Assembly (NCBI RefSeq): GCF_009914755.1
Contig: NC_060936.1
Source: the human T2T-CHM13v2.0 reference genome, Homo sapiens
Length of the DNA stretch: 64,000 bases
Reading direction: 5' to 3' (one strand)
Positions 28,318 to 29,189 of the stretch are shown piece after piece. Made by a program: the position numbers and the translations under genes. The notes beneath the pieces were generated by a model that saw nothing but the letters and a program-made list of their open reading frames with translations, was not told where the DNA came from and did no database searches. How positions within the stretch are numbered: the first letter of the stretch is position 1; each line of letters begins with the position of its first letter.

Positions 28318-28386
28318 TATCCTATTTATTTTTATTTACCATTATTTATTTTTAATTGCTGGACAGTTTGACAAGTCCAGTTTGAG

Positions 28387-28575
28387 CTAGTTATGTATCA
28401 CATCCCATTTGCAAGGGTTGTTTGTCTTGTTCAAAGGACAATGAGTACAACCAATGTCAACAGAAGTTGTTTTTCTTCCTTCGAAGAGAAGGGATGCGCC
28501 AGGATGGAGAGTGCCTGCATTCCTGCCCATCAGGGTACTATGGACACTGAGCCCCAGATATGAACAGATGTGCAA
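28387..28575 (+). pseudogene. Isolated pseudogenised copy of the RSPO2 exon encoding furin-like repeat 1
   Basis: Frame from 28386 reads ASYVSHPICKGCLSCSKDNEYNQCQQKLFFFLRREGMRQDGECLHSCPSGYYGH*APDMNRCA; recalled RSPO2 is ASYVSNPICKGCLSCSKDNGCSRCQQKLFFFLRREGMRQYGECLHSCPSGYYGHRAPDMNRCA. In-frame TGA at 28548-28550. Confidence 0.9.
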
Positions 28576-28733
28576 CTTCTCTCGGAGAAAACAAAATAAA
28601 AAATACGTCATTGGTCCATGTTCAACTGCCCATCGTAAAAAAGAAATACATCATTGGATAAGCAACTTCATTCAAAAGTCAGTGCCACAGCAAGCAAGAA
28701 ATTAGAAGCTTGTAAAAATAAGATGGAATTTTG

Positions 28734-29030
28734 AGCTGGGCACGGTCGCTCATGCCTGTAATCTTAGCGCTTTGGGAGGCCAAGGCAGGTGGATCACTTG
28801 AGGTCAGGAATTCAAGACCAGCTTAGCCAACATGGCGAAACCCCGTCTCTACTAAAAATACAAAAATTAGCCAGGTGAGGTGGTGAGTGCCTGTAATCCC
28901 AGCTACTTGGGAGGCTGAGGCAGAAGAATCACTTGAACCCAGGAGGCGGAGGTTGCAGTGAGCCAAGATCGCGCCACTGCACTCCAGCCTGGGTGACAAT
29001 AAAAATAAATAAATGAAATGAAAATAAAAT
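28734..29030 (+). mobile_element. AluS
   Basis: TSD aaaataagatggaatttt / aaaataaggtggaatttt. Confidence 0.95.
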
Positions 29031-29189
29031 AAGGTGGAATTTTCACCCATTGACAAAAAGTTAATAATTATTATTGTATCTAATTTCTGGACATTGAATA
29101 GCTCATAAGCCAACCTACTTATGAGCATCTGTTTTCTGGATGAGCTTCAACCGTTGCAAGTGGATTTTTCTTCTTTGGACTACTTGTCA

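What the first reader, a model, noticed from the sequence alone, without database searches (positions are those of the whole stretch)
28353..29093. Orphan, exon-precise RSPO2 copy inside a BICD1 intron: candidate retrocopy of a non-canonical or circular RNA
Seen: 28387-28575 (189 nt) encodes a near copy of the R-spondin-2 furin-1 region, with 7 of 63 residues differing from the recalled protein, including CGA>TGA at 28548. The ORF track misses it. Recalled: RSPO2 has a 189-nt phase 1-1 exon with these ends. Seen: similarity stops at both exon ends; the 3' side reads GCAA|CTTCTC, which is neither a GT donor nor the next exon (CRIENC..); the 5' side has only GAG in common with the previous exon; there is no poly-A. 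A candidate TSD, taattgctggaca (28353-28365) / taatttctggaca (29081-29093), brackets the exon, about 210 bp of unexplained sequence and a later Alu. Inference: lack of the donor argues against a DNA duplication, so the template was a spliced RNA joining this exon to an unannotated exon. If the 21 nt upstream are the 3' end of that same cryptic exon, this is a circRNA-derived pseudogene recording an undescribed RSPO2 circle.
Basis: partly seen in the sequence, partly recalled or inferred. Interest (0 to 1): 0.85.

Follow-up and report, generated by a model that had tools for sequence, protein, structure and literature searches.

The report
Spliced three-exon RSPO2 retrocopy in BICD1
This is an old, dead, reverse-transcribed copy of a short alternative RSPO2 transcript (one coding exon plus two exons hidden in the next intron), an ordinary kind of pseudogene that preserves an otherwise unrecorded splice form and shows no sign of a circular RNA.

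Summary
Window 28387-28575 copies the 189-nt RSPO2 furin-1 exon (179/189 nt, 7 residues changed, CGA>TGA at 28548), and identity stops at both exon ends.

The "unexplained" downstream sequence is now explained. Window 28576-28662 and 28663-28734 + 29046-29056 match two unique stretches of RSPO2 intron 2, 12.8 kb and 18.3 kb downstream of that exon. Both have canonical splice sites in the parent. The second stops 26 nt after an ATTAAA hexamer and has no donor there.

An Alu with its own 15-nt duplication was inserted later. A 13-nt target-site duplication (12/13) brackets the whole copy.

So this is a colinear, L1-type processed pseudogene of a linear, intronically polyadenylated RSPO2 transcript. 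I estimate its age at roughly 40 Myr.

The 21 nt at the 5' end match nothing in 200 kb of the RSPO2 locus. Genome-wide they match only at chance level, so back-splicing is not supported. Seventeen nt across that junction (ACA of the target-site duplication plus 14 nt of the head) are the reverse complement of flank DNA about 85-100 nt downstream. This suggests flank-templated "extra nucleotides".

It is a new member of a known kind, of modest interest.

The parts
28353..28365 (+). 5' copy of the target-site duplication, TAATTGCTGGACA, preceded by a T-rich tract
   Evidence: 12/13 identical to 29081-29093. It is the best direct match between the flanks and was reached by 12 of 1000 shuffles.
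28366..28386 (+). 21-nt head (GTTTGACAAGTCCAGTTTGAG). It is not RSPO2-derived except possibly its last 1-3 nt. Most likely these are 5' extra nucleotides templated from the downstream flank in inverted orientation, with GTTTGA copied twice.
   Evidence: No match in the RSPO2 locus and only chance-level matches genome-wide. It shares only GAG with exon 1. Window 28363-28376 is the exact reverse complement of 29182-29195 (I6). That length was reached by 0 of 5000 shuffles and by 65 of 4000 natural unmasked 24-mers.
28387..28575 (+). Copy of the RSPO2 furin-1 exon (189 nt, phase 1-1), disabled by TGA at 28548-28550 and 6 other residue changes
   Evidence: 179/189 identical to chr8:109117556-109117744(-). 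The parent is R-spondin-2 residues 33-94. PF15913 scores it 68.6 bits.
28576..28662 (+). Copy of cryptic exon A from RSPO2 intron 2 (parent chr8:109104704-109104789, 86 nt)
   Evidence: 79 matches, 6 mismatches, 3 indel columns. The parent is flanked by ...catgcAG| and |GTTAGG. It is unique in the genome.
28663..28734 (+). Copy of cryptic terminal exon B, first part (parent starts at chr8:109099268)
   Evidence: 89% identity. The parent is preceded by ttcttctctcttccttcctttccaaccAG.
28735..29030 (+). Later Alu insertion (sense) with an A-rich tail, inside exon B
   Evidence: Masked repeat 28741-29037 in the annotation. It matches more than 20 dispersed copies in the RSPO2 locus at 72-87% and has a dimeric internal repeat (D1). 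Its own 15-nt TSD is 28720-28734 / 29031-29045, 13/15 (D3, 22). The parent is uninterrupted at this point.
29046..29056 (+). Copy of exon B, last part, up to the end of homology (parent chr8:109099186). This lies 26 nt after the second of two parental ATTAAA hexamers.
29057..29080 (+). Tail: an A run continuing from 29055, then GTTAATAATTATTATTGTATC. Origin unsettled: a decayed or short poly(A) remnant, or filler.
   Evidence: No significant match to the parental sequence downstream of exon B; 423 of 2000 shuffles scored as high.
29081..29093 (+). 3' copy of the target-site duplication, TAATTTCTGGACA
29176..29195 (+). Flank segment TGGACTACTTGTCAAACTGT, the candidate template of the head. It is the reverse complement of 28363-28379 apart from one extra ACT unit.
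   Evidence: I6.

Best explanation
The feature is an L1-type processed pseudogene (retrocopy) of a linear, alternatively spliced and intronically polyadenylated RSPO2 transcript.

Template RNA: the furin-1 coding exon, spliced to an 86-nt exon A and then to a roughly 83-nt terminal exon B. Both A and B lie inside RSPO2 intron 2. The RNA ended at a poly(A) site about 26 nt after an ATTAAA hexamer.

Insertion: the RNA was reverse-transcribed into a T-rich site in a BICD1 intron, in the same orientation as BICD1. This created a 13-nt target-site duplication.

5' end: the cDNA stopped, or the RNA began, within 0-3 nt of the 5' edge of the furin-1 exon. I infer that the 5' junction was sealed with about 18-21 extra nucleotides copied in two rounds from flank DNA about 85-100 nt downstream, in inverted orientation. 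Joining used the ACA at the end of the duplication as microhomology.

Later history: an Alu landed in exon B, and the copy decayed neutrally (premature TGA, a lost cysteine). It has no evident function.

Shown: the parentage, the two intron removals at canonical sites, colinearity, the TSD and the later Alu.
Inferred: L1 as the agent, the poly(A) site, the origin of the head, and the age.

The confidence of 0.85 is for the core claim (a retrocopy of a linear spliced RSPO2 RNA with two intron-2 exons). For the flank-templated origin of the head alone I would give about 0.55.
For: - Three colinear matches, all to the RSPO2 sense strand: chr8:109117556-746 at 95%, 109104706-794 at 90% and 109099197-270 at 89%. 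These are the only matches in the genome besides the window itself.
- Introns of 12,766 and 5,435 nt are removed exactly at AG/GT sites.
- The canonical next exon lies further downstream at chr8:109089181-321, so A and B are intronic.
- Homology ends at chr8:109099186, 26 nt after ATTAAA. The parent reads CTGATC there, not GT, and a U/GU-rich stretch follows.
- The TSD is 12/13 and was reached by 12 of 1000 shuffles. It is preceded by TTTTT.
- Substitutions look neutral: 7 of 10 exon substitutions change the protein. K2P distance is 0.055 for the exon (only the copy is free to drift) and 0.105 for A+B (both copies drift).
- Head: an exact 14-nt inverted match to the flank that includes 3 nt of the TSD. 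It was reached by 0 of 5000 shuffles and by 65 of 4000 natural unmasked 24-mers.
- Published work says 5' extra nucleotides of LINE inserts often derive from flanking sequence (PMC4245944, passages read).
- Within window 24001-34000, only 28385-28730 is low-copy RSPO2-like.
Against: - There is no clean poly(A) tail, only A5 followed by 21 A/T-rich nt.
- The inferred endonuclease site TT|TAAT is a poor match to the TT|AAAA consensus (consensus recalled, not from a call).
- Both parental ATTAAA hexamers are altered in the copy.
- Under plain 5' truncation, a 5' end falling within 3 nt of an exon boundary is an unexplained coincidence.
- The inverted-repeat match was found post hoc. Its natural-sequence null gives about 1.6%, so it is suggestive rather than proven.
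- I found no independent record that exons A and B are used. No protein of 65-208 aa from named sources carries the exon-A tail: 13 hits were scored, and 13 candidates known from samples only were left out.
- No transcript annotation for chr8 was available.
- No primate genome was available, so the empty site has not been seen.
Confidence: 0.85

Rival explanations
1. circRNA-derived pseudogene. A circle containing the furin-1 exon and cryptic exon(s) was reverse-transcribed past the back-splice junction, so the 21-nt head would be the 3' end of the last circular exon.
For: The 5' boundary is exon-precise, and the head ends in ...GAG as exon ends often do. There are few A's at the 3' end, a trait reported for circRFWD2-derived pseudogenes (PMC4897178, whole main text read).
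Against: - The defining non-colinear junction is absent. The head has no match with up to 5 mismatches on either strand in 200 kb covering the whole gene. blastn-short gave only chance-level words.
- Genome-wide there are 82 hits against 68 for the control, none near RSPO2. None of the five 2-mismatch hits is followed by GT.
- The exon order is colinear.
- Exon B's homology ends 26 nt after ATTAAA at a site with no GT. That is what a cleaved linear RNA predicts, not a circularised exon.
- The head is better explained by the flank.
Confidence: 0.04
2. Retrocopy of a transcript with an unrecognised 5' exon (an alternative first exon, a trans-spliced or read-through exon, or one since lost) that ended ...GTTTGACAAGTCCAGTTTGAG. 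The copy would be truncated 21 nt into that exon.
For: The join lies exactly at the acceptor of the furin-1 exon, and ...GAG| is a typical exon end. At about 10% divergence a 21-mer can escape a 3-mismatch genome search roughly one time in six (my binomial estimate).
Against: There is no match with up to 5 mismatches in the 200-kb locus, and genome-wide hits are at control level. One 3-mismatch hit (chr1:29456633) is followed by GT, which is about what chance gives among the 7 inspected out of 81 non-self hits. The 14-17-nt inverted identity with the flank, which overlaps the TSD, would then have to be coincidence.
Confidence: 0.12
3. Full-length copy of a short RNA that starts at an intronic start site 2 nt upstream of the furin-1 exon (parent ...ttttaC|AGCTAG). 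The extra G would come from reverse transcription of the cap, and flank-templated nucleotides would lie upstream of it. This is a variant of the best explanation that differs only in what set the 5' end.
For: The window reads G-AG-CTAG, and AG matches the last two intron bases of the parent. This removes the need for a coincidental truncation point. An A/T-rich TATA-like stretch lies about 30 nt upstream in the parent (read by eye).
Against: The same three bases, GAG, equal the end of exon 1, so the data cannot tell the two apart. There are no promoter data, and cap-derived G is recalled knowledge, not tested here.
Confidence: 0.15
4. DNA-level duplication of the RSPO2 exon into BICD1, followed by deletions.
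For: None beyond the presence of the exon.
Against: Two introns (12.8 and 5.4 kb) are missing exactly at AG/GT boundaries, and no intron sequence flanks any of the three segments.
Confidence: 0.01

Closest known systems
L1-mediated processed pseudogenes (retrocopies) that preserve alternative splice forms ('genomic fossils'; Shemesh et al. 2006, seen only as a reference-list title in PMC5470649, content recalled)
   Same: Intronless colinear copy of a spliced polyadenylated transcript, flanked by a TSD, 5'-incomplete, decaying neutrally. It records exons absent from the canonical mRNA.
   Different: The poly(A) remnant is very short or degenerate. The 5' end coincides with an exon boundary. 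There are 21 extra nucleotides at the 5' junction.
circRNA-derived pseudogenes (Dong et al. 2016, PMC4897178)
   Same: A copy of internal exons only, with few A's at the 3' end.
   Different: There is no non-colinear junction. The 3' end is at a likely poly(A) site rather than inside or at the end of a circularised exon. The head is not from the parent locus.
5' extra nucleotides of LINE inserts derived from flanking sequence (Yamaguchi et al. 2014, PMC4245944, citing Kajikawa et al. 2012)
   Same: Extra nucleotides lie between the TSD and the 5' end of the insert, they match nearby flank DNA, and there is microhomology (ACA) at the joint.
   Different: Here the passenger is a cellular mRNA. 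The template is inverted and lies about 85-100 nt away. One ACT unit differs and GTTTGA is copied twice. The event is ancient, so the mechanism can only be inferred.

Membership tests
L1-type processed pseudogene | Introns removed exactly at exon-exon junctions of a parent gene located elsewhere | tested here: met
   Two joins at canonical AG/GT sites. Introns of 12,766 and 5,435 nt are absent.
L1-type processed pseudogene | Target-site duplication flanking the insert | tested here: met
   13 nt, 12/13 identical, reached by 12 of 1000 shuffles. No empty site was available to confirm it.
L1-type processed pseudogene | Poly(A) remnant at the 3' end, downstream of a polyadenylation signal | tested here: inconclusive
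   Homology ends 26 nt after a parental ATTAAA. What follows is A5 plus 21 A/T-rich nt with no significant parental match.
L1-type processed pseudogene | Insertion at a TT|AAAA-like endonuclease site (consensus recalled) | tested here: inconclusive
   The site reads TTTTT|TAATTG, which matches 2 of the 4 A positions.
circRNA-derived pseudogene, high confidence (Dong et al. 2016) | Non-colinear (back-splice) exon-exon junction | tested here: not met
   The exon order is colinear. The 21-nt head is absent from the 200-kb RSPO2 locus and at control level genome-wide.
circRNA-derived pseudogene, low confidence (Dong et al. 2016) | Sequence confined to exons known to circularise, with no sequence outside the circle | not testable with these tools
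   No circRNA database or reads were available. The listings for RSPO2 + circRNA showed no RSPO2 circle in the 10 of 65 papers listed. Exon B ends without a donor, which argues against it. Dong et al.'s human table is in a supplement I could not open.
Flank-derived 5' extra nucleotides of LINE-mediated inserts | Extra nucleotides at the 5' junction identical to nearby flanking DNA | tested here: met
   14/14 exact inverted match, extending to 17 with one 3-nt unit difference, whose near end lies 82 nt beyond the 3' TSD. Reached by 0 of 5000 shuffles and by 65 of 4000 natural 24-mers. Found post hoc.
Functional retrogene | Intact open reading frame under constraint | tested here: not met
   In-frame TGA, a Cys to Tyr change, and 7 of 10 substitutions non-synonymous. 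No start codon or signal peptide was copied.

The most novel reading that the evidence does not exclude
The copy is a roughly 40-Myr-old snapshot of a germline-expressed RSPO2 isoform that ends inside intron 2.

In today's human gene, both cryptic exons keep their AG/GT sites and both ATTAAA hexamers. The predicted reading frame runs from the furin-1 domain (to residue 94) into 20 new residues and stops 24 nt before the last junction, so by the usual 50-nt rule it should escape nonsense-mediated decay.

If it starts at exon 1, such an mRNA would encode a secreted Fu1-only R-spondin-2. That protein would retain the part that binds ZNRF3/RNF43 but lack the LGR-binding Fu2 and the TSP/basic domains (domain roles recalled, not from a call). 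It could be a natural modulator of Wnt potentiation that is still made. Alternatively, the exon-precise 5' end may mark an intronic start site of a short non-coding RSPO2 RNA.
Probability: 0.25. Interest if true: 0.5.

Novelty: new member of a known kind. Interest (0 to 1): 0.3.

Why it matters
It turns an apparent oddity (a lone exon with no donor, no next exon and no poly-A) into a textbook mechanism, and it removes the claim of an undescribed RSPO2 circle.

What remains of value is modest but concrete:
- The pseudogene is absent from the RefSeq gene table I could read.
- It gives exact coordinates for two RSPO2 intron-2 exons and a poly(A) site that can be looked up in transcript data.
- It is a clean ancient example of a retrocopy whose 5' junction seems to carry flank-templated inverted filler.
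- It lies in sense orientation inside a BICD1 intron and brings an AATAAA (28593-28598) with it, but nothing suggests an effect on BICD1.

Tried and rejected
Source of the 21-nt head:
- Substitution-only search with up to 5 mismatches on both strands of chr8:109020001-109220000 found nothing.
- blastn-short with word size 7 on window 28353-28400 (head plus neighbouring bases) gave, apart from the exon-2 start itself, only 9-14-nt matches there, with E of 0.36 or more. That output was long and was cut.
- A whole-genome pattern search with up to 3 mismatches gave 82 hits against 68 for the control.
- I inspected 7 of the 81 non-self hits. None of the five 2-mismatch hits is followed by GT, and one 3-mismatch hit is.
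- Canonical exon 1 shares only GAG with the head.

Tail 29059-29080 against 150 nt downstream of parental exon B: not significant, with 423 of 2000 shuffles scoring as high. I therefore dropped two ideas: a 44-nt internal deletion reaching the downstream AATAAA, and a colinear continuation with a 6-nt deletion.

Protein search for an annotated Fu1-plus-exon-A isoform: 13 hits among 16 candidates, with 13 sample-only candidates left out. I fetched two, P0001 and P0003, and both continue into canonical exon 3.

Literature:
- RSPO2 + retrocopy: 2 papers, both veterinary, listing only.
- RSPO2 + circRNA: 65 papers, 10 listed, none on an RSPO2 circle judging by title or abstract start.
- RSPO2 + intron 2 / alternative exon, RSPO2 + splice variant + truncated, and BICD1 + RSPO2: nothing relevant in the listings.
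- These searches do not cover subscription journals or supplements.

APOBEC editing as the cause of the G>A cluster: only 2 of the 4 sites are in GG or GA context, so I left it as unexplained.

My reading of the Alu as S-type is from recall only.

Full report
**What is there.**
Window 28385-28575 matches chr8:109117556-109117746 on the minus strand at 95% identity. This lies inside RSPO2 (chr8:109027818-109212087, minus). The parent segment is an exon flanked by ...ttttacAG and GTGAGC. It encodes R-spondin-2 residues 33-94, 100% identical to PDB chains named R-spondin-2.

The 189-nt exon part (window 28387-28575) is 179/189 identical. Its translation differs at 7 residues, including CGA>TGA at 28548 and a Cys to Tyr change. 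A genome-wide Pfam Furin-like_2 search finds both furin exons of RSPO1-4, this copy (68.6 bits, 1 TGA), and one further above-cut-off match on chr9 that I did not examine. The RefSeq gene table lists no RSPO2 pseudogene.

**The 'unexplained' 210 bp.**
The same genome search returned two more unique matches, both on the RSPO2 sense strand and both downstream of the furin-1 exon:
- window 28571-28660 to chr8:109104706-794, at 90%;
- window 28661-28734 to chr8:109099197-270, at 89%.

Reading the parent:
- Exon A is chr8:109104704-109104789 (86 nt). It is preceded by ...aaaccatgcAG and followed by GTTAGG.
- Exon B starts at chr8:109099268, after ttcttctctcttccttcctttccaaccAG.

The window joins GCAA|CTTCTC and GGATAAG|CAACTTC exactly at these sites. 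Introns of 12,766 and 5,435 nt are therefore missing. The canonical next exon (Furin-like_2 positions 56-102) is at chr8:109089181-321, so A and B both lie in intron 2.

Exon B is interrupted in the window by an Alu at 28735-29030:
- it is a masked repeat in the annotation;
- it matches more than 20 dispersed copies in the RSPO2 locus;
- it has a dimeric internal repeat;
- it has its own 15-nt duplication, 28720-34 / 29031-45, 13/15 identical.

After the Alu the copy resumes at 29046-29056 (CCCATTGACAA against parental CCCACAGACAA).

Homology ends at chr8:109099186. That is 26 nt after the second of two ATTAAA hexamers. The parent has no GT there, and a U/GU-rich stretch follows.

Within window 24001-34000, nothing else is low-copy RSPO2-like.

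**Mechanism.**
The following point to retroposition of a linear, spliced, intronically polyadenylated RSPO2 RNA:
- exact intron loss at two junctions;
- colinear exon order;
- an end near a poly(A) signal;
- a 13-nt direct repeat (28353-65 / 29081-93, 12/13) that brackets everything. It is the best direct match between the flanks and was reached by 12 of 1000 shuffles.

These are the hallmarks listed for L1-mediated retrocopies (PMC5470649, passages).

Weak points:
- The tail is only A5 plus 21 A/T-rich nt, with no significant parental match (423 of 2000 shuffles scored as high).
- The target reads TT|TAAT rather than TT|AAAA (consensus recalled).

**Age.**
K2P distance is 0.055 for the exon, where mainly the copy is free to change. 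It is 0.105 for A+B, where both copies drift. That gives about 0.05 per lineage.

Using primate neutral rates that I recall (about 1.1-1.3e-9 per site per year), this is about 40 Myr, with a wide error because it rests on only 10 and 16 substitutions. The Alu is younger than the copy.

**The 5' end.**
Canonical exon 1 ends ...GCAGTAAGCGAG|GTGGGT.

Searches for a source of the 21-mer found nothing:
- no match with up to 5 mismatches on either strand of chr8:109020001-109220000;
- with window 28353-28400 (head plus neighbours) as the blastn-short query, only 9-14-nt matches there apart from the exon-2 start itself;
- genome-wide with up to 3 mismatches, 82 hits against 68 for the reversed control, none near RSPO2;
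- of 7 hits inspected, none of the five 2-mismatch hits is followed by GT.

By contrast, window 28363-28376 (ACA of the TSD plus GTTTGACAAGT) is the exact reverse complement of 29182-29195, which starts 88 nt beyond the 3' TSD (I6). The match extends to 17 nt if one ACT unit of an ACTACT repeat in the flank is skipped. The rest of the head repeats GTTTGA.

Controls for that match:
- 0 of 5000 shuffled 24-mers reach 14 nt;
- 393 of 4000 natural 24-mers reach it, inflated by repeats;
- 65 of 4000 natural 24-mers from unmasked sequence reach it.

I found the match post hoc, so I rate it as suggestive. It fits the reported behaviour of LINE 5' junctions, where extra nucleotides often derive from flanking sequence (PMC4245944, passages).

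My inferred sequence of events is:
1. The 3' end of the cDNA folds back on its own resected strand.
2. It copies the flank in two short rounds.
3. It pairs through TGT/ACA with the overhang of the target duplication.

Why the RNA-derived part starts within 0-3 nt of an exon edge is not explained. It could be chance truncation 3 nt into exon 1. It could instead be an intronic start site 2 nt upstream plus a cap-derived G. Both give GAG.

**The circRNA reading.**
Dong et al. (PMC4897178, whole main text) define high-confidence circRNA-derived pseudogenes by a non-colinear exon junction. None is present here. The last exon also ends at a probable cleavage site rather than at a donor. The only shared trait is a low A count at the 3' end. 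Their table of human cases is in a supplement that I could not open. I put this reading at about 4%.

**What the fossil implies.**
In the present human gene, reading from the furin-1 exon into exon A gives 20 further residues and then a stop 24 nt before the A/B junction. A transcript of exon 1-2-A-B would therefore encode a signal peptide plus Fu1 only.

I found no record of this form:
- No protein of 65-208 aa from named sources carries that tail. Thirteen hits were scored, 13 sample-only candidates were left out, and the two sequences I read continue into exon 3.
- Five literature listings show nothing on it.
- I could not see chr8 transcript annotation, so the exons may well be annotated elsewhere.

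**Verdict.**
This is a real feature of an ordinary kind: a decayed processed pseudogene of an alternative RSPO2 transcript, with a later Alu. Interest is modest. It rests on the recorded isoform and on the probable flank-templated 5' filler.

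Noticed in passing
window 28444-28453: Five of the 10 exon substitutions fall within 10 nt: G>A at 28444, 28447, 28450 and 28453, exactly 3 nt apart, plus T>C at 28448. 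With uniform placement this happens in 255 of 100000 trials. Only 2 of the 4 G>A sites are in GG or GA context, so this is not a clear APOBEC signature. It may be a single complex mutation.
   Followed up: partly
window 28593-28598 (inside copied exon A): The copy carries an AATAAA in the sense orientation of BICD1 inside a BICD1 intron. I have no evidence that it is used.
   Followed up: no
window 27980-28363: Two antisense Alu-like masked repeats (27980-28216 and 28228-28363) are followed by a T-rich (TATTT)-like tract that runs into the 5' TSD. The retrocopy landed at the edge of this tract.
   Followed up: no
window 29127-29140: ATCTGTTTTCTGGA resembles the 3' TSD region ATCTAATTTCTGGA (29078-29091) at 12/14 (D8). 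It is probably chance, but it slightly weakens the uniqueness of the TSD motif.
   Followed up: no
chr8:109111474-109113266 (RSPO2 intron 2, plus strand): RefSeq lists an NRBF2 pseudogene (NRBF2P4) between the furin-1 exon and cryptic exon A. It is unrelated to the finding.
   Followed up: no
window 26324-26433: The annotation lists an enhancer ('active region_6189') about 2 kb upstream of the copy. No link to the copy was examined.
   Followed up: no
chr9:88339995-88340201 (plus strand): A Furin-like_2 match above the curated cut-off (39 bits) that lies outside RSPO1-4 and outside the window. I did not identify the gene.
   Followed up: no
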